DNA from: Ilumatobacteraceae bacterium
Lineage (GTDB): Bacteria > Actinomycetota > Acidimicrobiia > Acidimicrobiales > Ilumatobacteraceae
Length of the DNA stretch: 64,000 bases
NCBI GenBank assembly: GCA_023262325.1
Contig: JALRBS010000118.1
Location: 3,199 to 67,198 of the forward strand
Reading direction: 5' to 3'
Within the stretch, counting starts at the first letter, position 1. Each line of letters begins with the position of its first letter. The position numbers and the translations under genes are program-made. The notes under the pieces were generated by a model that worked only from the letters and a program-made list of their open reading frames with translations, had not been told where the DNA came from and made no database searches. Positions 4,885 to 57,794 of this stretch are shown here, piece by piece.

Positions 4885-6234
4885 TCACAGTGGCGAGTTG
4901 CCGTGGCGGCGTGGCGGCCGGCGGTCGCGTTTATCGACGAGCATGTCGAGCGCAGCCGCAATGACTGAACGCGTGTCAGCGGGGTCGATCACGTCGTCAA
5001 CGTAGCCGCGCTCGGCAGCGACATACGGATTCAACAGTCGCTCCGAATAGTCGCTTTCGAATGCCTGGCGATCCTCGTCACTTGCGCCTCGGCGAAGAAT
5101 TGCAGAGGCCTGGCCGGCTCCCATGACGGCGAGCTCGGCCCACGGCCATGCAAGGCAGATGTCGTTGCCCATCTCCTTCGAATCCATCACGATGTAGGCC
5201 CCGCCGTAGCTCTTGCGCAGAATGACACATACTCGTGGCACGGTTGCTTGGCCATAGGCAAAGACGAGCTGCGCGCCGTGGCGGATCATCCCGCGCCATT
5301 CGAGATCCTTGCCGGGGTAAAAACCTGGGGTGTCAACGAGGGTCACGATCGGCAGGTTGAACGCGTCGCAGGTGTTGACGAAACGGGCAGCCTTCTGCGA
5401 GGCCGGAATGTCGAGGGTTCCTGCGAGGGCCATCGGCTGATTGGCAACAAGACCTATCGCTCGACCACCGATCGTGGCAAAACCAGTCACCGCGTTCATC
5501 GCCCAATTTCGGCGAACCTCGGTGAAAACACCGTCGTCAACAATTGATTCAATGACGTCCCGTACGTCGTAACTGCCGGTCGTCGACTCAGGAATGAGGT
5601 CGCCCGCTTCGGGGGTGCGGCGAGACGTCGGATCGCCGGTTTCGCGTCGTTCAGTGCGAAGGTCCGAATGATCTGGCAGATAGTCAAGAAGTTCGGAGAT
5701 CATGTCTGCCGCCTCGGCGCGGTCGGCGACGACGGCGGTGGCAAGTCCTGCAGAACGTTCCATCGTTGTGGCACTGCCAAGCTCAGTCTTTGAAATTTCG
5801 ACACCGGTGAATTGGCGAATCATGAGTGGCCCGTTGACAAATGCGTACGCCTCGTTCGTCATGACAACGAAGTCGACGAGGCCAAGAAGCAGTGCCGGTC
5901 CTGATACTGCCGGTCCGTCGACGATCGCAAAGGTGGGGATGACGCCCGAGCAACGGGTCAGCAATTTTGCAGCGACACCCCAGCCGTGTAACGGTGCGAT
6001 GCCCTCGGCGATATCGGCGCCCGCAGAATTGATGACAATGACGAGTGGGAGGCGTTGTTCGAGCGCAAGGCGGACACCTTCGCTCATCACCTGCGTCATC
6101 TGCGAGGTGAGCGGTGGTGCCACGTCGCTTGCTGCGAAGTCGACCCAGACGACACGACGTTCCTCGACCAGTCTTACGCGAGCGGTGACCGGAACGGAGA
6201 CTCCGGTCGCGATACCTAGCTCGTCAATTGACAT
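4885..6234 (-). CDS. acyl-CoA carboxylase carboxyltransferase (beta-subunit) homolog with short, divergent N-domain
   Basis: 449-aa ORF. The C-terminal half is canonical (ASQKAARFVNTCDAFNLPIVTLVDTPGF, RKSYGGAYIVM, NPYVAAERGYVDDVIDP, HGNSPL). The N-terminal half is recognisable but degenerate. TAACCT-N6-ATG lies upstream. Confidence 0.75.
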   Translation of the reverse strand: MSIDELGIATGVSVPVTARVRLVEERRVVWVDFAASDVAPPLTSQMTQVMSEGVRLALEQRLPLVIVINSAGADIAEGIAPLHGWGVAAKLLTRCSGVIPTFAIVDGPAVSGPALLLGLVDFVVMTNEAYAFVNGPLMIRQFTGVEISKTELGSATTMERSAGLATAVVADRAEAADMISELLDYLPDHSDLRTERRETGDPTSRRTPEAGDLIPESTTGSYDVRDVIESIVDDGVFTEVRRNWAMNAVTGFATIGGRAIGLVANQPMALAGTLDIPASQKAARFVNTCDAFNLPIVTLVDTPGFYPGKDLEWRGMIRHGAQLVFAYGQATVPRVCVILRKSYGGAYIVMDSKEMGNDICLAWPWAELAVMGAGQASAILRRGASDEDRQAFESDYSERLLNPYVAAERGYVDDVIDPADTRSVIAAALDMLVDKRDRRPPRRHGNSPL

Positions 6235-6240
6235 GCTCTG

Positions 6241-6246
6241 AGGTTA
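6241..6246 (-). promoter_or_regulatory. -10 element TAACCT, 6 nt upstream of ATG 6234 (leaderless-type)
   Basis: The minus strand reads TAACCT CAGAGC ATG. Confidence 0.5.
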
Positions 6247-6324
6247 GGTCGCCGTGGTGGTGCCGCGTGGATTCGACTGACGTGCCTCGTTCACTCGGCG
6301 CGTCGCTTGTGTGGCCGGGAGCAT

Positions 6325-7245
6325 CTATCCGTTGTCAGTGACGGGATATAACCCGCGGTCCTCGTGGATGCGTGTCTCGATCGAGGTGAGGACTGCATCC
6401 CGCACTGCGCGCGTTGCCGGCGAGGGATTTGGACGTTGGCGGCGAACCCACGCAACGCGGCGTCGAGGCAGACCGGTGACCGTGATGAGGCGAGCACCGG
6501 TGAGATCGGTCTCACCGACCGCTGTAGCGGGCACGATGGTCGCCCCGTGCCCGTCGATGGCGAGTGCGGAGAGTAATCGAACACTGTCAATTTCGGATTG
6601 CGACCGAAGGGTGACACCCTGTTCGGCGGTGGACCGTTCGAGGATTCGACGAAGTGCCGCGCCCAGCGGTGGTAGCAGGAGGGGCTCACCGTCTAAATCT
6701 TCAATCGAAATTTCGTCACGGTTGGATAGGTGATGGTCGGTCGGAGCGAGGAGCAGCAGCGCTTCATCGAAAATTGGTTCGACAACGAGGTCGGGCTCAT
6801 CAATCGGAAGGTGAAGAATCGCCGCATTAAGGAGTCCCGACACGACGTTAGGAAGCAGTGCTGATGTGCTGCCCTCGGTAACGACGGTGTGCACGTTGGG
6901 GTAGACCTCGCTGAGACGGCGCAGGGTTGGCGGAATGGACCAACGAGCAATCGTTCCGATGACGCCGATGCGCACATCTCCGCTGACGTCGGACTCGCTG
7001 CTCTCGAGGTCCGAGCGAATGTCATCGAGTTCGTGCATGATTCGCCGTGCCCGGATAAGAACTTTTCGACCCTCCTCAGTGACACGACCTGTCTGGCGAT
7101 CGATGAGCACAGTTCCGAGTTCGCGTTCGAGTTTGCTGATATGCGAGGAAACGTTTGATTGAACCGTATAAAGGGCACGGGCTGCTGATGAGAAACTGCC
7201 GTGGTCGGCAATAGCGATGAGCGTGCTGAGTTGGCGAAGATCCAT
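6325..7245 (-). CDS. LysR family transcriptional regulator
   Basis: 306-aa ORF with an N-terminal winged HTH (MDLRQLSTLIAIADHGSFSSAARALYTVQSNVSSHISKLEREL) followed by a substrate-binding domain. Confidence 0.9.
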   Translation of the reverse strand: MDLRQLSTLIAIADHGSFSSAARALYTVQSNVSSHISKLERELGTVLIDRQTGRVTEEGRKVLIRARRIMHELDDIRSDLESSESDVSGDVRIGVIGTIARWSIPPTLRRLSEVYPNVHTVVTEGSTSALLPNVVSGLLNAAILHLPIDEPDLVVEPIFDEALLLLAPTDHHLSNRDEISIEDLDGEPLLLPPLGAALRRILERSTAEQGVTLRSQSEIDSVRLLSALAIDGHGATIVPATAVGETDLTGARLITVTGLPRRRVAWVRRQRPNPSPATRAVRDAVLTSIETRIHEDRGLYPVTDNG

Positions 7246-7253
7246 CTCTAAAA

Positions 7254-7268
7254 ACGATATCAGATATC
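7254..7268 (-). promoter_or_regulatory. putative -10 (TATCGT, 8 nt upstream of the LysR ATG) embedded in the palindrome GATATCAGATATC
   Basis: The plus strand at 7256-7268 reads gatatcagatatc, a 13-bp palindrome. The minus-strand TATCGT corresponds to 7259..7254. The surrounding region is AT-rich in a GC-rich genome. Confidence 0.4.
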
Positions 7269-7280
7269 TCTAAGTTCGAC

Positions 7281-7310
7281 TTGCGAGATGCACGAAATCA
7301 CGTGCATAAT
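7281..7310 (+). promoter_or_regulatory. putative promoter TTGCGA-N18-CATAAT driving the candidate sRNA
   Basis: ttgcga at 7281-7286 and cataat at 7305-7310, with an 18-nt spacer. There is no plus-strand CDS downstream before the terminator at 7381-7419. Confidence 0.45.
7288..7307. promoter_or_regulatory. perfect dyad ATGCACG-N6-CGTGCAT (candidate operator)
   Basis: 7-bp arms at 7288-7294 and 7301-7307. The dyad lies inside the spacer and -10 of the putative sRNA promoter, between the divergent LysR and sRNA starts. Confidence 0.5.
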
Positions 7311-7316
7311 TTCACA

Positions 7317-7419
7317 AGCAAATATCGACGCGGTACACCCCCCAAGTCCCGCTCGAGGAACCCAATTGGGATTCCAGGTAGAGATGCCCCGGCCCCCCAT
7401 CGGGGCGTCTCCCGTTTTT
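7317..7419 (+). ncRNA. candidate small RNA of about 100 nt, 6C-family-like (two hairpin loops each carrying CCCCCC)
   Basis: Hairpin 1: 7326-7333 pairs with 7349-7355 (one bulge), and the loop contains cccccc at 7338-7343. Hairpin 2: 7357-7375 (ggaacccaattgggattcc). Hairpin 3: an 11-bp stem, 7381-7391 with 7401-7411, whose loop contains cccccc at 7393-7398, followed by ttttt at 7415-7419. The 5' end is only inferred from the promoter. Confidence 0.5.
7381..7419 (+). terminator. intrinsic terminator (11-bp GC-rich stem, 9-nt loop, T5 tract)
   Basis: gagatgccccg / cggggcgtctc pair with one G-U, followed by ccg and ttttt. The orientation fits only a plus-strand transcript. Confidence 0.55.
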
Positions 7420-7487
7420 CAGCCGATTTGCCGGTACCGAGCCCGGTCGCAAGGGACCGAGGGCGAAGTGTGGACAGGCGTGGGTCT

Positions 7488-9752
7488 TCAGCCTGCCGAG
7501 GCCACTTTTGCGCGCACGATATTGAGCGCCGATCCCGCCCTGAACCACTCGACCTGCTCGTCGCTGAACGTGTGCGTGGTGAGGAACTCGACTGAGGAAC
7601 CATCAGCTCGCACGACGCGACAACGGATCTCTTTCCCGGGAACCGGTGGCAGGTCGCAAATGTCAATGCGATCGCTCTCGCCGATGAGTTCGTAACTGTC
7701 GGGGTCGGAAAAGGTCAACGGCAACAGCCCTTGCTTCTTGAGGTTGGTCTCATGAATGCGGGCGAATGACCGGGCAATGACGGCAACCCCGTTACGGAAG
7801 CGTGGTTCCATCGCTGCGTGCTCGCGGGACGAACCTTCGCCGTAGTTGCGATCGCCGACGGCAACCCAGCGGATACCGGCTTCGTGATATCGCCGTGCAA
7901 TTTCGGGGTACGTACGACGGTCGCCATCGGTGGTGTCCAACCCGATGCCAACTTCGCTGTCGAACGCATTGACCGCCCCTGCGAACAGGTTTCCGGAAAT
8001 GTTTTCAAGGTGGCCGCGATAGGTGAGCCACGGACCTGCTGCTGAAATGTGGTCAGTAGTACACTTGCCTTGCGCCTTCATCAGCACCGGGAGTCCCACA
8101 TAATCGTTGCCATCCCATGCTTGGAATGGCTCGAGTAACTGAAGACGTTCGCTCGAAGGCGATACCTGCACGACGACTCCATCGCGGTCGGCTGGCGGAG
8201 CGGTAAATGTGTCCTCACCTGGGTCGTAGCCGTGTGCTGGGAGGACGACACCAACGGGAGCGTCTAGTCGCACCTCTGTGCCGTCGGGGGATGTGATCGT
8301 GTCGGTTACCGGATCGAAATCAAGCCGGCCTGACAGGGCGATTGCCATGACGGTGTCGGGCGAGGTGACGAACGAGTAGGTGTTTGCTGACCCATCATTT
8401 CGTTTCGGGAAGTTTCGATTGAACGAATTGACGATCGTGTTTGGAACCGCTGTGGCATCCTCAGGTCGACTCCACTGACCGATGCACGGCCCGCAGGCGT
8501 TCGCCAACACCGTCGCGCCAACCGCTTCGAGGTCAGCAAGAATTCCGTCTCTCTCGATCGTTGCACGTGTCTGTTCTGATCCGGGTGTGATGAGGAGGTC
8601 AACTTTGGCGCGGAGACCGTGGGCGGCCGCTTGACGCGCAATCGATGCCGCCCGAGTGAGATCCTCATAGGACGAGTTCGTGCACGAGCCAATCAGCGCA
8701 GCGGAGATCTCGATCGGCCAACCGTTTTCTGCGGCGGCAGCACCAACTGCGGATCCGACACGGTGCGCTCGGTCGGGCGAGTGTGGACCATTGATCATTG
8801 GCCGCAAGTCATCCAAGTTGATTTCGATGAGTTCGTCATAGAGAGCGCCCTCGTCGGGACGAAGATCATCGGCGACAGCGTCGGCAGCGTCTGCGTGTTC
8901 GGCTCTGCCCGTGCTGCGTAAGTACGCCGCCATATTGCTGTCATAGGCAAAAACTGAGGTCGTAGCGCCGATTTCGGCACCCATATTGCAGATCGTTGCT
9001 TTTCCGGTTGCGGAAATTGAGTCGGCTCCGGGGCCGTGGTATTCGACGATCGCACCAGTTCCGCCCTCAACGGTGAGCAGGCGCGCAACTTCCAAGATCA
9101 CGTCTTTTGGTGATGACCAACCACTCAGCGACCCCGTGAGGCGAACGCCAATGACCTTCGGCCAGCGAACGTTCCATGGAAAGCCCGTCATTACGTCGAC
9201 TGCGTCGGCACCACCAACACCGATCGCAACCATGCCAAGGCCACCAGCATTCGGGGTGTGTGAATCGGTGCCGATCATCATGCCGCCGGGGAACGCGTAG
9301 TTCTCGAGAACGACCTGGTGAATGATGCCGGACCCGGGGCCCCAGAATCCGATGCCATATTTTGCGGAGACGGAACGAAGGAAGTCGTACACCTCGCGAT
9401 TGGTGTCAACCGCAACCCCGAGGTCGATGGTTGCGCCAACCTTGGCTTGGATGAGGTGATCACAGTGAACCGTCGATGGAACCGCGGCTTCCGGAAGTCC
9501 TGCCGTCATGAACTGCAGAAGGGCCATCTGTGCCGTGGCATCTTGCATCGCCACGCGATCTGGGTTGAAGTCAGCGTACGAGAGCCCTCGTTCCATCTCT
9601 TGTCCCGAAGGATCCACGAGATGGTTGATGAGAATCTTCTCGGCGAGCGTCAGCGGACGACCAAGCCGTTCACGTCCAAGCGCAACACGTCCGGGAAGTG
9701 AGGCGTAGACGCGACGTACGAGATCGATGGGGGTTGATGCGCTTACCGACAT
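7488..9752 (-). CDS. acn: aconitate hydratase, mitochondrial-type (about 750 aa)
   Basis: 754-aa ORF with long stretches matching the mitochondrial aconitase signature: [156 protein letters not shown]. Confidence 0.9.
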
Positions 9753-9758
9753 GGCTCC

Positions 9759-9764
9759 ACTATA
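9759..9764 (-). promoter_or_regulatory. -10 element TATAGT, 6 nt upstream of the acn ATG (leaderless-type)
   Basis: The minus strand reads TATAGT GGAGCC ATG. Confidence 0.55.
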
Positions 9765-9794
9765 CGAACCGAGGTCTGCTTCGGCGCAGGGGAC

Positions 9795-20759: not shown

Positions 20760-21955
20760 CAGTGCGTACCTCTCATATCAAAAGCGATTTTGATTGCTCC
20801 CCGCCGACCCGCTGATGCGGCGTGGGCAAGGGCTTGGACATGGTCCTCAAGGGGATAGGTCGCCGAGACGAGACGCTCGGCGCCGATGTGTCGTGCGAGT
20901 TGCATTGCGAGGTCGAATGTTCGAACGTCCTTGCCGTCAACGTGTTCCGTGCCGTAGGTGTAGGAACCAAGCAACGCGATTTCCCGATGCCAGAGCCCGG
21001 TGAGGTCGAGGCGAACATCGCCGGGCAACCCGAGAAGCACGACGGCTCCTCTCGGGCGAGTCACCTCGATGGCCTGGCGAACTGACGACGCGTCACCAAT
21101 CGCGTCAATGGTCGCATGAGATCCCGATGACAGGTGGCTGCCGATCCGGTGTGAACCAGAGAGCCGACGAACGGCACGGGGGAGTTCGTCGCCAGACGCA
21201 AGGACGTCTGCGCCGAATCCCCTTGCGAGACGCATCTGTTGGGGGTAACGAGCGGAGGACACGATTCGTGCGTTCGGAACGGCTGCGCGCAGCGCCGCGA
21301 TCGCACCAAGACCCATCGTTCCCGCTCCAAGCACTACGAATATTGGTGACTCCGTGTCGCCGAGGTGTCGGTTCTCATGGTGGTTCGCGATGAGCGCCGC
21401 GTGAACCGAACCGGCGAGTGGTTCGATGAGCAGCGCTGTCTCATCGCTCATGTCGGCGGGAACGTCATGTAGTTGCGATTCGTGCGCCCAAAACCACGGC
21501 GCCCAACCGCCACCGGTCGAGCAGCAGAACCCTGTTTGGATACCCGGTTCGAGCGGTCCAGTCGCGAGGTGGGCGTAGTCATCGCCGTCGGCAGGCGCGG
21601 CACCTTCCCAGGGTGGCTTCGCTCCTCTCGCAGCGTGGCCGAGCACCGGTTCAATAACGACGCGGCGTCCCGAGTCGGTCTCGCCGACGATCTCGTGGCC
21701 TGGAACAAACGGAAATGACACAAAGTCTTCGAAGTAGGTCGACGCGTGTCCATCGATAAGCGCAAGGTCGGAACCGCAGATTCCACACATACGCGTGGTG
21801 ACTTTGTTCCACCCTTCACCGGATGGTCGCGGCGGATCGTCAATTGATCGATACTCGACCGGAGCAACTCTGACGCTCGTCGAGGGGCTTGTCACCGACA
21901 ACAAACGTGCCATGCCGAATCGGCGCACGCTGTGGTGGACCTGAAGCGCCTTCAT
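20759..21955 (-). CDS. zinc-dependent alcohol dehydrogenase (MDR) family protein
   Basis: 398-aa ORF with CGICGSD and GHE catalytic-zinc motifs and a GAGTMGLG Rossmann fold. I could not find the usual structural-zinc Cys cluster. An ATGA overlap joins it to the upstream gene. Confidence 0.8.
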   Translation of the reverse strand: MKALQVHHSVRRFGMARLLSVTSPSTSVRVAPVEYRSIDDPPRPSGEGWNKVTTRMCGICGSDLALIDGHASTYFEDFVSFPFVPGHEIVGETDSGRRVVIEPVLGHAARGAKPPWEGAAPADGDDYAHLATGPLEPGIQTGFCCSTGGGWAPWFWAHESQLHDVPADMSDETALLIEPLAGSVHAALIANHHENRHLGDTESPIFVVLGAGTMGLGAIAALRAAVPNARIVSSARYPQQMRLARGFGADVLASGDELPRAVRRLSGSHRIGSHLSSGSHATIDAIGDASSVRQAIEVTRPRGAVVLLGLPGDVRLDLTGLWHREIALLGSYTYGTEHVDGKDVRTFDLAMQLARHIGAERLVSATYPLEDHVQALAHAASAGRRGAIKIAFDMRGTH

Positions 21956-24300
21956 GAGAATGACCTTCGTCGTTCACGTTCTGACAGCAGTGGCCCTATC
22001 GGCAGAAGCGATCTGGGTCCTCCGCTTGCCTTTGACCAATTCTCAACAAGCCAGCCTCGCTTGCGGGCGATCGCTGCAAGTCGAGTTTCGGGGTTCACGG
22101 CGACCGGGAATCCCACGGCCTCGAAAAGTGGTAAGTCGGACGAGGAATCGGCGTACGCAACACACTCCTCAAGTTTGAAACCTTCGGCATCGCAATAGTC
22201 GGCGAGAATTTGTGCTCGTGCCTCGCCAGTTGGCGGGACGCTCGTCATCTCTCCAGTGAGGGTGCCATCGGAACGTACCGTCATTTCTGCAGCGACGATT
22301 TCGTCAAACAGTGGTTTGAGTCCTGCCACGTTGAACGAGAGTGCGCCGGTGATGAGCACCGTTCGATGCCCAGCCGCGCGATGTTCACGAACCCTCCGAA
22401 TACCTTCAGGGAAACACTTCGAAATAATGAGCCCGGTGAGCATTGCGTCGACGTCAGTATCGATCTGTTCAATCGGTGCTCCGTCGTAGCGGCGATAGAA
22501 GTGCCGGAGAAAGTCTGTTCGATCGCGACGGTCCATGCGCAGCAGTCCTGGAGCCTCGGTGAGGGTGCGTGCGACGTATCGCAGGCGTTCGCGGCTGTCG
22601 AGTCGACGTGTCGCGAGCCAGGAGTAGCTTTCGACAACGTTAGATGCAATCAGCGTGTTCTCAAGGTCAAAGGCAGCAACATGACGCTTTGAATCGAGGA
22701 CTTGGTTCCGCAGCCGCGTTGAGCGATCGGCGGTCTTGACCTTGCCAGGCGTGCTCTTCACGCGGGCGTGTTCGACGATTGAGGGAAGGTGGATGTTGTG
22801 GACGTAATGCGCCCAGTCGACAACGCGGGGGTCGAAGGTGAAGGACTGCTGGTCTTCGACGGAAAGGCGATTCCAGATGTCCATCAGGTTGTCGACCTGG
22901 TAAATCGCCTCGCATTCGGTGTACAGCCCGTACAACTCGACGTACTCGAGCGCACGCTCAACCTCGAGACGTCTCGTCTCGAGGGTTGCTGCGAATTCCG
23001 CTTGCTTTCCACGAAGCGGCAACATCTGCATCACCGACTCGGCGCGCGTGATTGCTGACTTCGCTCGACCAAGTTGACTCTGCACACGGCCCCGACCCGG
23101 AAATCGCCACTCGGGTACAAGGATGGGCTGACCCTCGTTGTCGTACAGCGGATGCTCGGTGAACCAACTGCTGACGTGATTGACAAGCGTGCGATATTTG
23201 AGCGGGTTGATGCCCCCCGAAGCCACCTGGGTAATGAACGGCGCGTCCTTCGAACCTTGCGCTGCCACCGCAACGATGGCGGCAACGACAAGGTCAACTG
23301 GAATGACATCGATGGTGCCCTCGGGGACGCCGGGGAACTCTTTGAGTAACCCGCGCGCGTACGAAATGATGACCGGCTCCGCCATGCGGAACCCCCGAAT
23401 CCAACCGGGTCGAGGTTCCGCCCACGCAGATTCAATAATTGATGGTCGAACGATTGAGACGGGAATATCGCCCTTAGTCTCGGTGAGCGCCTGTTCACCG
23501 AGTGCCTTGGTGAATGCGTACGCATCTGGCCAGCCCACCGACGCTGCTCGGGATCGCCCGGCGGTGACAAGTTCGTCACGAACCCAACGTTCTCGAATCT
23601 GTTCCGTCTTCGCCGCTAGTGCAGGTGCGCCGGCGGCACCAAGTTCCGCGCGGGCCCGTTTTCTGAACTCGTTCAGACGCGCCGGTGTTCGTGAAGCGGC
23701 CTCGGTATCACCATGAAGTCGGCGGGCTGAATGCACTTCATCTCGCCAATTCAGCCCGATCGCAAACGGGCCCTCCGAGACGAGCTCCTCCGGCGCGGTT
23801 CCGCGACGATTACCTGCGACGTAGCAGGTCGACACCGCTACAAGGTGTGGGGCAATGTTGAGATCGTGACAAAGCTCGGCGAGACGCACGGGTCCGAGCA
23901 AGTTGATTTCGACAGCCTGGTCGAGTGGAGAATCGAACGACACAGCCGCGGCGGAGTGAATAATCGTGTCGACCGAAGAAAAAATTGACCGGCTATCCGC
24001 ATCAAGGCCAAGTCCATCCGTACTCACATCTCCCGCAATGGTGGTAATGCGTCGTGCGCACATCTCCTCAAATGACTCTTCAGACGAGCTGTAGATGTCG
24101 CGCAACCTGTCGAAGGCATCGTTGGCGAGTATTTCGCGTTGGGTTCGACGAGCGGCAGAGGTTCGGCGTCCGTCGCGCACAATCAGAATGAGTTCGCAAT
24201 CCGGGACAGCACGCAGTAGTCGTTCCACCAGCGCGGTGCCAACGAACCCCGTGGCGCCCGTGATGGCGATTCGCTTACCGGCGAGTGACGAAGAAATCAC
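21952..24300 (-). CDS. fusion protein: fatty acyl-CoA/thioester reductase-like extended SDR (N-terminal) plus HAD-IB hydrolase domain (C-terminal)
   Basis: 782-aa ORF with a GTG start. ITGATGFVG at residues 13-21 and YAFTK at 261-265 fit a male-sterility/FAR-type NAD-binding domain. The HAD motifs are FDLENT (residues 544-549), VLITGA (648-653) and YADSSSDLP (716-724). Confidence 0.7.
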   Translation of the reverse strand: MISSSLAGKRIAITGATGFVGTALVERLLRAVPDCELILIVRDGRRTSAARRTQREILANDAFDRLRDIYSSSEESFEEMCARRITTIAGDVSTDGLGLDADSRSIFSSVDTIIHSAAAVSFDSPLDQAVEINLLGPVRLAELCHDLNIAPHLVAVSTCYVAGNRRGTAPEELVSEGPFAIGLNWRDEVHSARRLHGDTEAASRTPARLNEFRKRARAELGAAGAPALAAKTEQIRERWVRDELVTAGRSRAASVGWPDAYAFTKALGEQALTETKGDIPVSIVRPSIIESAWAEPRPGWIRGFRMAEPVIISYARGLLKEFPGVPEGTIDVIPVDLVVAAIVAVAAQGSKDAPFITQVASGGINPLKYRTLVNHVSSWFTEHPLYDNEGQPILVPEWRFPGRGRVQSQLGRAKSAITRAESVMQMLPLRGKQAEFAATLETRRLEVERALEYVELYGLYTECEAIYQVDNLMDIWNRLSVEDQQSFTFDPRVVDWAHYVHNIHLPSIVEHARVKSTPGKVKTADRSTRLRNQVLDSKRHVAAFDLENTLIASNVVESYSWLATRRLDSRERLRYVARTLTEAPGLLRMDRRDRTDFLRHFYRRYDGAPIEQIDTDVDAMLTGLIISKCFPEGIRRVREHRAAGHRTVLITGALSFNVAGLKPLFDEIVAAEMTVRSDGTLTGEMTSVPPTGEARAQILADYCDAEGFKLEECVAYADSSSDLPLFEAVGFPVAVNPETRLAAIARKRGWLVENWSKASGGPRSLLPIGPLLSERERRRSFS

Positions 24301-56673: not shown

Positions 56674-57210
56674 GTGTTCGACGACGAGGGAGCAACGCTA
56701 CGGGTGCTTGGTATTGACCCAGGTCTCACGCGATGCGGTTTTGCAGTCGTTGACGCCGCAAAACCGTCGAAGTTGACGGCGCTCTCGCTAGGGGTCTTTC
56801 GGACCTCCCCAAGCGAGGAGATTCCATCGCGGCTCGCGGACCTGCAGCGCGATATTGCCGACCTTATTGACGAGTTCACGCCTCAGGTTGTCGCGGTTGA
56901 GCGACTGTTTTTTCAGGTCAACGTTCGCACTGCGATGAGCGTTGGACAGGCCAGCGGCGTTGTGTTGAGCCAGGCGGCGCTGGCTGGCTGTCGAGTCGTC
57001 CAGTACACCCCCAACGAGGTGAAACAAGCCGTCGCTGGGTACGGCGCAGCCGACAAGGCTCAGGTTCAGCGCATGGTGCAACAACGACTTCAGCTCTCGA
57101 GCCCGCCGAAACCCGCTGACGCCGCCGACGCGGCAGCGCTTGCGTTGTGCTTCCTGTCGCACGAACCCGTTGGCCGTGCCATCTCGAAAGCGATCGGGGG
57201 AACCAGATGA
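56674..57210 (+). CDS. ruvC: crossover junction endodeoxyribonuclease RuvC
   Basis: The track ORF starts at 56194 inside bcp. RuvC similarity starts at LRVLGIDPGLTRCGFAVV. I chose GTG 56674, with GTG 56704 as an alternative. Confidence 0.9.
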   Translation: MFDDEGATLRVLGIDPGLTRCGFAVVDAAKPSKLTALSLGVFRTSPSEEIPSRLADLQRDIADLIDEFTPQVVAVERLFFQVNVRTAMSVGQASGVVLSQAALAGCRVVQYTPNEVKQAVAGYGAADKAQVQRMVQQRLQLSSPPKPADAADAAALALCFLSHEPVGRAISKAIGGTR

Positions 57211-57794
57211 TTGCCACGCTGCGGGGCTACCTGACAACGATTACCTCTGAGCATTCGGCGGTCATCGAAGTTTCCGGCGTGGGGTACGAGGTGTCCATGA
57301 CGTCTCGAGGGCTTCGAAAGTTGTCGAAAGACACTGAGATACTTCTCCATGTACACCACCACATTCGTGAGGACGCACAGCACCTTTACGGATTTTTGAC
57401 GCAGACCGAGCGGACCACATTCCGAGATCTTCTCAGCACCCACGGAGTTGGTCCCGCTCTCGCTCTTGCGATCCTCGACACTCACGAACCGTCGGCACTC
57501 ATCGACATTGTTGCCTCAGGAGATCACGCGGCGCTCACACTCGTTCCCGGCGTCGGAAAGAAGACCGCCGAGCGGTTACTCATCGAACTGCGTTCGCGAC
57601 TCTCGCTTCCAACGATTGACACCGATGATGGCACTCGAACAAGGTCAGCCATCGCGGAAATTCGAGCTGCACTCGAGAATCTTGGGTACGCGCCGAGCGA
57701 GGTTGTGGCGGCGACCAGTGAACTTCCTCATGATGTCACTGCTGCTGATGGCCTCCGCCAGGCCCTAGCGTCCTTAGGAGCTGCTCGTGCGTGA
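57207..57794 (+). CDS. ruvA: Holliday junction DNA helicase subunit RuvA
   Basis: ATG 57207 forms an ATGA overlap with ruvC and gives MIATLRGYL. It also has the HhH motif [12 protein letters not shown]. Confidence 0.93.

What the first reader, a model, noticed from the sequence alone, without database searches (positions are those of the whole stretch)
7281..7419. Candidate 6C-like small RNA in the only large non-coding gap, divergent from LysR and convergent with aconitase
The 243-bp gap between the LysR start (7245) and the aconitase stop (7488) is the only sizeable non-coding stretch in the 64 kb. On the plus strand it contains a promoter-like TTGCGA-N18-CATAAT (7281-7310). About 100 nt of sequence follows that folds by hand into three hairpins. 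The last hairpin is an 11-bp GC-rich stem followed by TTTTT (7381-7419), a textbook intrinsic terminator that has no plus-strand gene to terminate. Hairpins 1 and 3 each present exactly six consecutive cytosines in their loops (7338-7343 and 7393-7398). Two hairpins with C6-or-longer loops define the actinobacterial 6C RNA family (mycobacterial B11, Corynebacterium 6C RNA), and those RNAs are of similar length. The aconitase gene has no obvious terminator of its own, so read-through from it would be antisense to this RNA.
Basis: partly seen in the sequence, partly recalled or inferred. Interest (0 to 1): 0.62.

Follow-up and report, generated by a model that had tools for sequence, protein, structure and literature searches.

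The report
6C-like small RNA beside LysR
The gap between a LysR regulator gene and the aconitase gene holds a real, conserved gene for a small RNA of about 105 nt with cytosine-rich hairpin loops; it is a divergent relative of the actinobacterial 6C RNA that Rfam misses, and in every related Acidimicrobiia genome examined it lies back-to-back with the same regulator gene.

Summary
Window 7281-7419 (+) holds a sigma-70-like promoter, three hairpins and a strong intrinsic terminator. C6 runs sit in the loops of hairpins 1 and 3.

This is not chance. All 80 orthologous LysR loci fetched from Acidimicrobiia MAGs carry exactly one copy, divergent from lysR. The -10 box lies a fixed 57-58 nt from the lysR ATG. 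Covariation is strong in every stem (91.7% of cells paired against 35-56% in slid controls; 28 of 37 pairs show changes on both sides).

The usual, probably ancestral, form has three hairpins, each with a UCCCCCAA loop. In the window's clade the middle hairpin has shrunk and lost its C run.

Rfam's 6C model does not hit the window. It does align full-length to hairpins 2+3 of three-hairpin relatives, at 29-34 bits against a gathering score of 47.

Most likely it is a LysR-controlled, trans-acting RNA that pairs with G-rich ribosome-binding sites. The RNA gene, its structure and its linkage to lysR are shown. Regulation, targets and a discrete transcript are inferred. Verdict: a new variant of a known kind.

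The parts
7317..7420 (+). Small RNA gene, about 100-105 nt. The 5' end is inferred (about 6-8 nt after the -10 box). The 3' end lies in or after the T run.
   Evidence: My covariance model R1 matches 7312-7424 at 85.7 bits, E 1.5e-26, and this is the only match in the 64 kb. Fold z = -4.08. Homologues are present in 80 of 80 loci.
7281..7310 (+). Promoter of the RNA gene: -35 TTGCGA (7281-7286), 18-nt spacer, -10 CATAAT (7305-7310).
   Evidence: The -10 region CACGTGCATA(C/A)TTTCAC is the most conserved part of the intergenic region across 81 loci. The -35 consensus is CTTGaaA.
7325..7356 (+). Hairpin 1, with a 9-nt loop ACCCCCCAA holding the C6 run 7338-7343.
   Evidence: Four of the loop Cs are invariant in 77 sequences. 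All 7 inner stem pairs show changes on both sides.
7357..7375 (+). Hairpin 2, a short derived form (GGAACCC-AAUU-GGGAUUCC) with no C run.
   Evidence: In most relatives (the loci with about 50-58% LysR identity) this position holds a longer hairpin with a CCCCC loop. That longer hairpin is the one the Rfam 6C model aligns to its first hairpin.
7377..7419 (+). Hairpin 3, an intrinsic terminator: extended stem 7377-7414, loop CCCCCCA 7393-7399, T run 7415-7419.
   Evidence: Stem cells are 99.3% paired and 9 pairs show compensatory changes. It corresponds to the second hairpin of the 6C model in relatives.
7256..7268 (.). 13-bp dyad GATATCAGATATC (GATA-N5-TATC), the candidate LysR-binding box. 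It is centred about 55 nt upstream of the inferred RNA start. It overlaps a possible lysR -10 box (TATCGT, 7259-7254 on the minus strand, 8 nt before the ATG).
   Evidence: Sequence. GATA-N5-TATC is present at the same place in the homologous loci. Binding was not tested.
7288..7307 (.). Second palindrome, ATGCACG-N6-CGTGCAT, spanning the promoter spacer and part of the -10 box.
   Evidence: Sequence. The left arm is kept only in the window's clade (L001-L013, L023). The right arm, CACGTGCAT, is near-universal.
6325..7245 (-). LysR-type transcriptional regulator, 306 aa, with no cysteine. It is divergent from the RNA gene.
   Evidence: Pfam HTH_1 and LysR_substrate. The best solved relatives are OxyR proteins, but the protein has no Cys at all.
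4885..6234 (-). Carboxyltransferase (acyl-CoA carboxylase beta-type) directly downstream of lysR. It is part of the conserved block.
   Evidence: Pfam Carboxyl_trans. It lies downstream of lysR on the same strand in 77 of 80 loci.
7488..9752 (-). Mitochondrial-type aconitase, convergent with the RNA gene (context only, not a conserved partner).
   Evidence: TIGR01340 at 1074 bits. It is next to the RNA in only about 18 of 80 loci.

Best explanation
Window 7317-7420 (+) encodes a stand-alone regulatory small RNA of the C-rich-loop type. It is a divergent relative of the actinobacterial 6C RNA. It is transcribed from its own sigma-70-type promoter and ended by its own intrinsic terminator. The promoter shares a compact control region of fixed length with the divergent gene for a cysteine-free LysR-type regulator. 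That regulator most likely binds the conserved GATA-N5-TATC dyad, activates the RNA promoter when it senses an unknown small-molecule ligand, and represses its own leaderless promoter, as GcvA does at gcvB. The exposed CCCCCC loops of hairpins 1 and 3 then pair with G-rich ribosome-binding regions of target mRNAs and block translation, as shown experimentally for 6C in mycobacteria. Shown here: the gene's anatomy, its structural conservation with covariation, one copy per locus, and its invariant linkage to lysR. Inferred: LysR dependence, the exact transcript ends, the targets and the pairing mechanism.
For: Promoter, three hairpins and terminator are present. The same element occurs once, divergent from lysR, in 80 of 80 Acidimicrobiia loci with 50-74% LysR identity. 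My model scores them 79-149 bits, apart from L008 (48.6 bits), whose terminator loop looks mis-assembled, and finds no second genuine copy. The -10 box lies 57-58 nt from the lysR ATG in all 81 loci. Covariation on a sequence-only MAFFT alignment: 91.7% of cells paired against 35-56% for slid partners; 28 of 37 pairs changed on both sides; 302 such cells against 82 +/- 7 in shuffles, with 0 of 500 shuffles as high. At least four Cs are invariant in loops 1 and 3 across 77 sequences. RF01066 (6C) aligns full-length to hairpins 2+3 of relatives at 29-34 bits. The terminator hairpin, GGCCCCGC..CCCCC..GCGGGGCC followed by UCCC, closely matches the 6C consensus. The RNA persists in the window's clade, where no co-directional gene follows it. 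That argues for action in trans. Metatranscriptome assemblies from many environments contain the element. One 81-nt contig has a sequencing adapter abutting the 3' side of the terminator stem, and another contig starts 6 nt after the -10 box. Published mechanism for 6C: C-rich loops bind G-rich RBSs without a chaperone (PMC6486639). Precedent for an sRNA gene divergent from the LysR-type gene that activates it: gcvA/gcvB (PMC1557403).
Against: No Rfam hit on the window copy, and no relative reaches the 6C gathering score. Unrelated C-loop sRNA models score similarly on relatives (ar14 29.8 bits, sX13 18.9 bits), so the 6C resemblance could be convergent. No stranded read-level RNA data exist for this organism. 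Contig ends are not transcript ends, and several contigs run on into the flanks. Many genes in this genome look leaderless, including aconitase and the carboxyltransferase, so the pool of Shine-Dalgarno-type targets may be small. No target has been identified.
Confidence: 0.6

Rival explanations
1. It is a protein-binding or sequestering RNA. The repeated, exposed C-rich loops act as tandem binding sites that titrate an RNA-binding protein, rather than pairing with mRNAs.
For: The ancestral form shows three near-identical UCCCCCAA loops on separate hairpins, a layout typical of decoy RNAs. The 6C motif itself was at first suggested to be a structural or protein-binding RNA (PMC3384566).
Against: For 6C, the closest relative, direct loop-mRNA pairing was shown genetically and appeared chaperone-independent (PMC6486639). 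The window's clade has dropped one of the three loops without losing the gene. No candidate protein partner is linked to the locus.
Confidence: 0.15
2. It is a cis-acting element, not a trans-acting RNA. Either it is a LysR-controlled leader or attenuator of the downstream HAD-PlsC gene that became orphaned in the window's clade, or it is mainly a bidirectional terminator and insulator between aconitase and lysR.
For: In most loci a HAD-IB/acyltransferase gene follows on the same strand within about 40-140 nt. Some metatranscriptome contigs join the RNA to that downstream sequence. Aconitase has no terminator of its own. In L035, L067, L070 and L076 the aconitase stop lies only about 20-25 nt from the hairpin.
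Against: In many of the loci read, the HAD-PlsC gene has its own TANNNT -10 box 6-9 nt before its start codon, just after the terminator. The element is fully conserved, with compensatory changes and invariant loop Cs, in 14 loci plus the window. In these, the next gene is a convergent aconitase (window, L001-L009), a reverse-strand ORF (L012, L013) or an unrelated PAP2 gene (L010, L011, L023). A plain terminator needs neither a promoter nor two further hairpins nor invariant loop sequences.
Confidence: 0.1
3. It is a C-rich-loop sRNA that arose independently of 6C. It would be convergent with 6C, as alphaproteobacterial ar14/cuckoo RNAs and Xanthomonas sX13 are, and so would be a wholly separate family.
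For: It is below threshold for RF01066 everywhere. ar14 and sX13 models score comparably. Its neighbours (LysR, HAD-PlsC, aconitase) differ from the published 6C neighbourhoods, cg0360/cg0362 and Rv3660c/Rv3661 (PMC4046766, PMC3384566). Earlier scan notes report other C-loop RNAs at other Acidimicrobiia loci.
Against: It occurs in the same phylum as 6C. The 6C model aligns end to end (positions 1-75) in five separate relatives. Primary-sequence similarity in the 3' hairpin and the trailing UCCC is close. The topology is the same as in C. glutamicum: a divergent gene, then the RNA, then a co-directional gene (PMC4046766).
Confidence: 0.3
4. It is a chance set of hairpins in a GC-rich spacer, with no gene.
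For: None beyond the absence of an Rfam hit.
Against: 80 of 80 loci are conserved, with covariation and a promoter at fixed spacing.
Confidence: 0.01

Closest known systems
6C RNA (Rfam RF01066; B11/MTS2822 in M. tuberculosis, cgb_03605 in C. glutamicum)
   Same: Same phylum, Actinomycetota. A stand-alone sRNA of about 100 nt with its own promoter. GC-rich hairpins display runs of 5-6 or more Cs in their loops. The last C-loop hairpin doubles as the terminator and is followed by UCCC and Us. The 6C model aligns full-length to hairpins 2+3 of three-hairpin relatives (29-34 bits). In C. glutamicum the gene is also divergent from one neighbour and co-directional with the next (PMC4046766).
   Different: Scores are below the gathering score of 47 bits everywhere, and the window copy has no hit at all. 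There is an extra 5' C-loop hairpin, so most relatives have three C loops. In the window's clade the hairpin that corresponds to the first 6C hairpin has lost its C run. Loops usually carry C5 (UCCCCCAA) rather than six or more Cs. The gene is invariably paired with a LysR gene, which is not reported for 6C. Published 6C regulators are SigA/SigB, GlxR, RamA and LexA (PMC5014011).
sRNA genes divergent from a LysR-type regulator gene (gcvA/gcvB; oxyR/oxyS from my own knowledge; lsrB beside AbcR1/2)
   Same: The sRNA gene lies head-to-head with an LTTR gene, with a short shared control region holding a dyad. In E. coli gcvB is divergent from gcvA, whose product activates it (PMC1557403). AbcR1/2 lie next to the LysR gene lsrB (PMC3712013).
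   Different: The RNAs are unrelated and the phylum differs. This LysR has no cysteine, so it cannot work as a thiol switch like OxyR, even though OxyR is its best solved relative. Regulation is inferred here, not shown.
Other C-rich-loop, anti-Shine-Dalgarno-like sRNAs (alphaproteobacterial ar14, Xanthomonas sX13)
   Same: Several hairpins with C-rich loops. The models give weak matches on relatives (29.8 and 18.9 bits).
   Different: They come from Proteobacteria, have different loop motifs (CCUCCUCCC in the ar14 consensus) and show no sequence relationship. The resemblance is in architecture only.

Membership tests
6C RNA (Rfam RF01066) | Covariance-model score at or above the curated gathering score (47 bits) | tested here: not met
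   No hit in the window at gathering score or at E <= 10 on 7200-7520. No hit at gathering score in 16 relatives. Sub-threshold hits of 29-34 bits in L018, L074, L075, L015 and L041.
6C RNA (Rfam RF01066) | Two adjacent stem-loops of about 80 nt in total, each with at least 6 conserved Cs in the loop (definition as quoted in PMC5014011) | tested here: inconclusive
   The window has two C6 loops (7338-7343, 7393-7398), but they sit on hairpins 1 and 3 with a C-less hairpin between them. Relatives have adjacent C-loop hairpins 2+3, usually with C5.
6C RNA (Rfam RF01066) | Occurs in Actinobacteria (Actinomycetota) | tested here: met
   All 80 homologous loci come from MAGs. Most are labelled Acidimicrobiia, Acidimicrobiales, Acidimicrobiaceae, Ilumatobacteraceae or, more broadly, Actinomycetota or Actinomycetes. 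One is labelled only 'bacterium' and three carry species names that look wrong.
6C RNA (Rfam RF01066) | Orthologous genomic position (between the Rv3660c and Rv3661 homologues; cg0360/cg0362) | not testable with these tools
The homologue search returned only close relatives. From memory only, Rv3661 and cg0360 may be HAD-type phosphatases. That would be a synteny link but is unverified.
6C RNA (Rfam RF01066) | C-rich loops pair with G-rich RBS regions of mRNAs (PMC6486639) | not testable with these tools
   Only leads: G5 runs 6 nt upstream of the ruvA start (run at 57196) and of a HAD/Sterile-domain gene (start 23385).
LTTR-sRNA divergent pair (GcvA/GcvB type) | sRNA gene head-to-head with a LysR-type regulator gene, with a conserved dyad in the shared control region | tested here: met
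   81 of 81 loci. The -10 box lies 57-58 nt from the lysR ATG, and the GATA-N5-TATC dyad is conserved.
LTTR-sRNA divergent pair (GcvA/GcvB type) | Transcription of the sRNA depends on the adjacent regulator | not testable with these tools
   This needs genetics or an EMSA.
OxyR (peroxide-sensing LTTR) | Redox-active cysteine pair (E. coli C199/C208) | tested here: not met
   The 306-aa protein has no cysteine. The aligned positions read LGAALR..ILERS.
Intrinsic (Rho-independent) terminator | GC-rich hairpin followed by a T run on the transcribed strand | tested here: met
   12-pair stem at 7381-7411, then TTTTT at 7415-7419, on the + strand only.

The most novel reading that the evidence does not exclude
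The RNA is the true acidimicrobial orthologue of 6C, preserved in an older three-loop form, and the adjacent cysteine-free LysR protein is its dedicated, ligand-responsive transcription factor. The conserved block is carboxyltransferase, then lysR, then the divergent RNA followed by HAD-IB/PlsC acyltransferase (or a PAP2 phosphatase). This would tie 6C-type RNAs to control of acyl-CoA and membrane-lipid metabolism, and would give the first clear upstream signal for a family whose physiological input has stayed obscure since its discovery.
Probability: 0.2. Interest if true: 0.7.

Novelty: new variant of a known kind. Interest (0 to 1): 0.55.

Why it matters
6C is one of the few sRNAs conserved across Actinobacteria, and what controls it and what it is for remain largely unknown. 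This study shows a class-wide, structurally supported relative that the Rfam model misses, so Acidimicrobiia genomes are currently annotated without it. The relative comes with an obvious candidate regulator and a conserved lipid-metabolism neighbourhood. That makes the questions of which signal turns on a 6C-type RNA and what it represses directly testable. It also documents loop gain and loss (three C loops against two) within a single RNA family. Acidimicrobiia are abundant in marine, estuarine and freshwater plankton, so a covariance model for this RNA would improve the annotation of many MAGs and metatranscriptomes.

Tried and rejected
2. Synteny test against canonical 6C loci through distant homologues of the HAD-IB domain: the search listed only close Acidimicrobiia relatives, so I abandoned it.
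3. OxyR/OxyS analogy: OxyR is the best solved relative of the LysR protein, but the protein has no cysteine. Rejected as a thiol sensor.
4. Expression. No RNA run is served for the window's organism, and X3 behaves like DNA, with one 4.6-kb contig. For relatives, only unstranded Logan contigs are available. Their ends mostly reflect assembly-graph breaks or run into the flanks. These data show presence in RNA libraries, not a discrete transcript.
5. Target prediction with RNA.duplexfold on the whole RNA was not meaningful, because it opens the terminator stem. I kept only two G5-RBS leads.
6. Protein-coding reading: the + strand ORFs 7281-7595 and 7288-7695 run antisense into aconitase, and homologues differ by indels that are not multiples of 3 in loops and in hairpin 2. 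Rejected.
7. The 'only non-coding gap' claim: my greedy ORF model gave spurious gaps, so it was not assessed.
8. Literature: no paper combines Acidimicrobiia with 6C or with C-rich sRNAs, and none combines LysR, 'divergently transcribed', sRNA and C-rich.

Full report
**Observation.**
- The promoter scan returns a single site, TTGCGA-18-CATAAT at 7281-7310 (+), against 0.1 expected.
- RNAfold of 7311-7420 gives three hairpins at -42.9 kcal/mol, z = -4.08, with no shuffle as stable.
- Hairpin 3 is a 12-pair stem (7381-7411) followed by TTTTT (7415-7419). It is called as a terminator on the + strand only.
- The C6 runs at 7338-7343 and 7393-7398 both lie in loops. Only five C6 or longer runs exist on the + strand of the 64 kb.

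**Organism and neighbours.** The flanking genes are a LysR-type regulator (6325-7245, minus strand; Pfam HTH_1 and LysR_substrate) and a mitochondrial-type aconitase (7488-9752, minus strand; TIGR01340 at 1074 bits). A genome-collection search with the LysR protein returned 80 loci with 50-74% identity. All come from MAGs, most labelled Acidimicrobiia, Ilumatobacteraceae or Acidimicrobiaceae. Public runs that hold the window's sequence are estuary and seawater metagenomes.

**Conservation.**
- Reading the 230 nt upstream of lysR in all 80 loci shows the same element every time.
- A covariance model built from 77 non-redundant copies (R1) finds exactly one genuine copy per locus, always on the strand opposite lysR and next to it. 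Scores are 79-149 bits, except L008 (48.6 bits), whose terminator loop looks mis-assembled. Two extra hits of about 16 bits are noise.
- The window copy scores 85.7 bits at 7312-7424 and is the only hit in the 64 kb.
- The -10 box sits 57 or 58 nt from the lysR ATG in all 81 loci. The block CACGTGCATA(C/A)TTTCAC and the -35 CTTGaaA are the most conserved intergenic positions.
- A 13-bp dyad, GATA-N5-TATC (window 7256-7268), is conserved between the two genes.

**Structure.** I used a sequence-only MAFFT alignment (A1; mean column identity 67%).
- RNAalifold predicts the three hairpins, and 21 of its 28 pairs show compensatory changes.
- With the outer stems added (37 pairs), 91.7% of cells are paired, against 35-56% when partners are slid by 1-3 columns.
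- 28 pairs change on both sides. There are 302 such cells against 82 +/- 7 in shuffles, and none of 500 shuffles reaches any observed measure.
- At least four Cs are invariant in loops 1 and 3 in all 77 sequences.

This is a structured RNA under selection for both its stems and its loop sequence.

**Architecture and the window's peculiarity.** Most relatives, those with about 50-58% LysR identity, carry three hairpins of about 130 nt in total, each with a UCCCCCAA-type loop. In the window's clade (L001-L013 and L023, LysR identity of 58% or more), hairpin 2 is shortened or replaced and has no C run. Its basal stem still covaries (GGAA/UUCC against GGGAU/AUCCC). L046 has the window-type 5' end but keeps a C loop on hairpin 2, so it looks intermediate. 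The window RNA is therefore a derived form with two C loops.

**Relation to 6C.** RF01066 gives no hit in the window, either at gathering score or at E <= 10 on 7200-7520. It gives no gathering-level hit in 16 relatives.
- With permissive thresholds it is the best-scoring Rfam family on the element in three-hairpin relatives: 30.5 bits in L018, and 34.0, 32.2, 30.0 and 29.2 bits in L074, L075, L015 and L041. Each alignment covers model positions 1-75 and maps to hairpins 2+3.
- The 3' hairpin (GGCCCCGC-loop-GCGGGGCC, then UCCC) closely resembles the 6C consensus.
- The gathering score is 47 bits, so formal membership fails.
- The ar14 and sX13 models, for unrelated C-loop sRNAs of Proteobacteria, also score 29.8 and 18.9 bits. 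Part of the signal is therefore shared architecture.

I conclude that this is a 6C-type RNA and probably a distant homologue. I put independent origin at about 0.3.

**Context.**
- A carboxyltransferase gene (window 4885-6234) follows lysR on the same strand in 77 of 80 loci.
- On the other side, most loci have a 480-aa HAD-IB plus acyltransferase (PlsC-like) gene after the RNA on the same strand. In the loci I read, it typically has its own TANNNT box 6-9 nt before the start codon, so it is probably a leaderless mRNA with its own promoter.
- L010, L011 and L023 have a PAP2 gene there instead.
- The window, L001-L009 and the L035 group have a convergent aconitase.

So the RNA-lysR-carboxyltransferase block is constant and the downstream gene is not. 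That argues against a purely cis-acting leader. The recurring lipid-related neighbours are a lead to the regulator's signal, nothing more.

**The regulator.** Its best solved relatives are OxyR proteins of P. aeruginosa and C. glutamicum. However, it contains no cysteine, and the OxyR redox positions are not conserved. It is therefore not a thiol peroxide sensor, and a small-molecule co-inducer is more likely. On the lysR strand, TATCGT (7259-7254) lies 8 nt before the ATG and inside the dyad. This fits a leaderless, autorepressed lysR (inference).

**Expression.** No RNA run is served for the window's own organism. For relatives, many metatranscriptome assemblies contain the element.
- In X31 an 81-nt contig of depth 12.9 has Illumina adapter sequence abutting the 3' side of the terminator stem.
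- In X25 a contig begins 6 nt after the -10 box.
- In some searches no contig covers lysR.
- Other contigs run into the flanks or simply span the conserved block.

Contigs carry no strand. This is weak support for transcription and no proof of a discrete RNA.

**Mechanism.** By analogy with 6C, whose C-rich loops bind G-rich RBSs of panD, dnaB and other mRNAs without a chaperone (PMC6486639), the exposed C6 loops should pair with G-rich translation-initiation regions. Aconitase and the carboxyltransferase appear leaderless, so they are unlikely targets at the RBS. Within the window, G5 runs lie 6 nt before the starts of ruvA and of a HAD/Sterile-domain gene. These are leads only. The LysR/sRNA head-to-head layout has precedents in gcvA/gcvB (PMC1557403), in lsrB beside AbcR1/2 (PMC3712013) and, from my own knowledge, in oxyR/oxyS.

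**Novelty.** Full-text searches found no paper linking Acidimicrobiia with 6C or with C-rich sRNAs. Rfam 15 does not detect the element at its curated thresholds. Earlier notes of this scan describe the same family in other Acidimicrobiia genomes. I treated them as leads, and my results agree with them. I classify the finding as a new variant of a known kind.

Noticed in passing
window 4885-6234 (-), and downstream of lysR in 77 of 80 loci: A 449-aa carboxyltransferase (Carboxyl_trans; N-terminally shorter than the mmdA/AccD profiles) always follows lysR on the same strand. Together with the HAD-PlsC or PAP2 genes on the other side of the RNA, this forms a conserved lipid-flavoured neighbourhood.
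   Followed up: partly
window 9753-9775 and 6235-6255 (minus strand): Aconitase (TATAGT-N6-ATG) and the carboxyltransferase (TAACCT-N6-ATG) have a -10 box 6 nt before the start codon and no Shine-Dalgarno sequence, so they look leaderless. The HAD-PlsC genes of relatives show the same pattern.
   Followed up: no
window 57196-57209 (+) and 23385-23396 (-): GGGGG runs lie 6 nt upstream of the ATG of ruvA (57207-57794) and of a 477-aa HAD plus 'Sterile' (fatty-acyl reductase C-terminal) protein (21952-23385). They are possible pairing sites for the C6 loops. 6C is linked to the SOS response and DNA replication in other actinobacteria.
   Followed up: partly
L008:3821-3934: This copy has an 11-C run and a broken terminator stem where its close relatives have GGCCCCCCATCGGGGC. 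It is probably a homopolymer assembly error, and it scores only 48.6 bits.
   Followed up: no
L015, L030, L067 (record titles): MAGs labelled 'uncultured Bifidobacterium sp.', 'Ferrithrix thermotolerans DSM 19514 isolate LH-02apr19-314' and 'Bifidobacterium breve' carry the acidimicrobial lysR-RNA locus and group with the Acidimicrobiia loci. The taxon labels look wrong.
   Followed up: no
L035, L067, L070, L074, L076 (upstream of lysR): A sub-clade has a different promoter (-10 CAAGAT or CAATAT, without the CACGTG block) and three C loops. In four of them (L035, L067, L070, L076) the aconitase stop lies only about 20-25 nt from the RNA's terminator, so that hairpin probably ends both convergent transcripts. 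L074 is too short to show the aconitase gene.
   Followed up: no
window 7488-9752 (-): The aconitase is of the mitochondrial type (TIGR01340 at 1074 bits, 754 aa), not the AcnA type usual in Actinobacteria.
   Followed up: no
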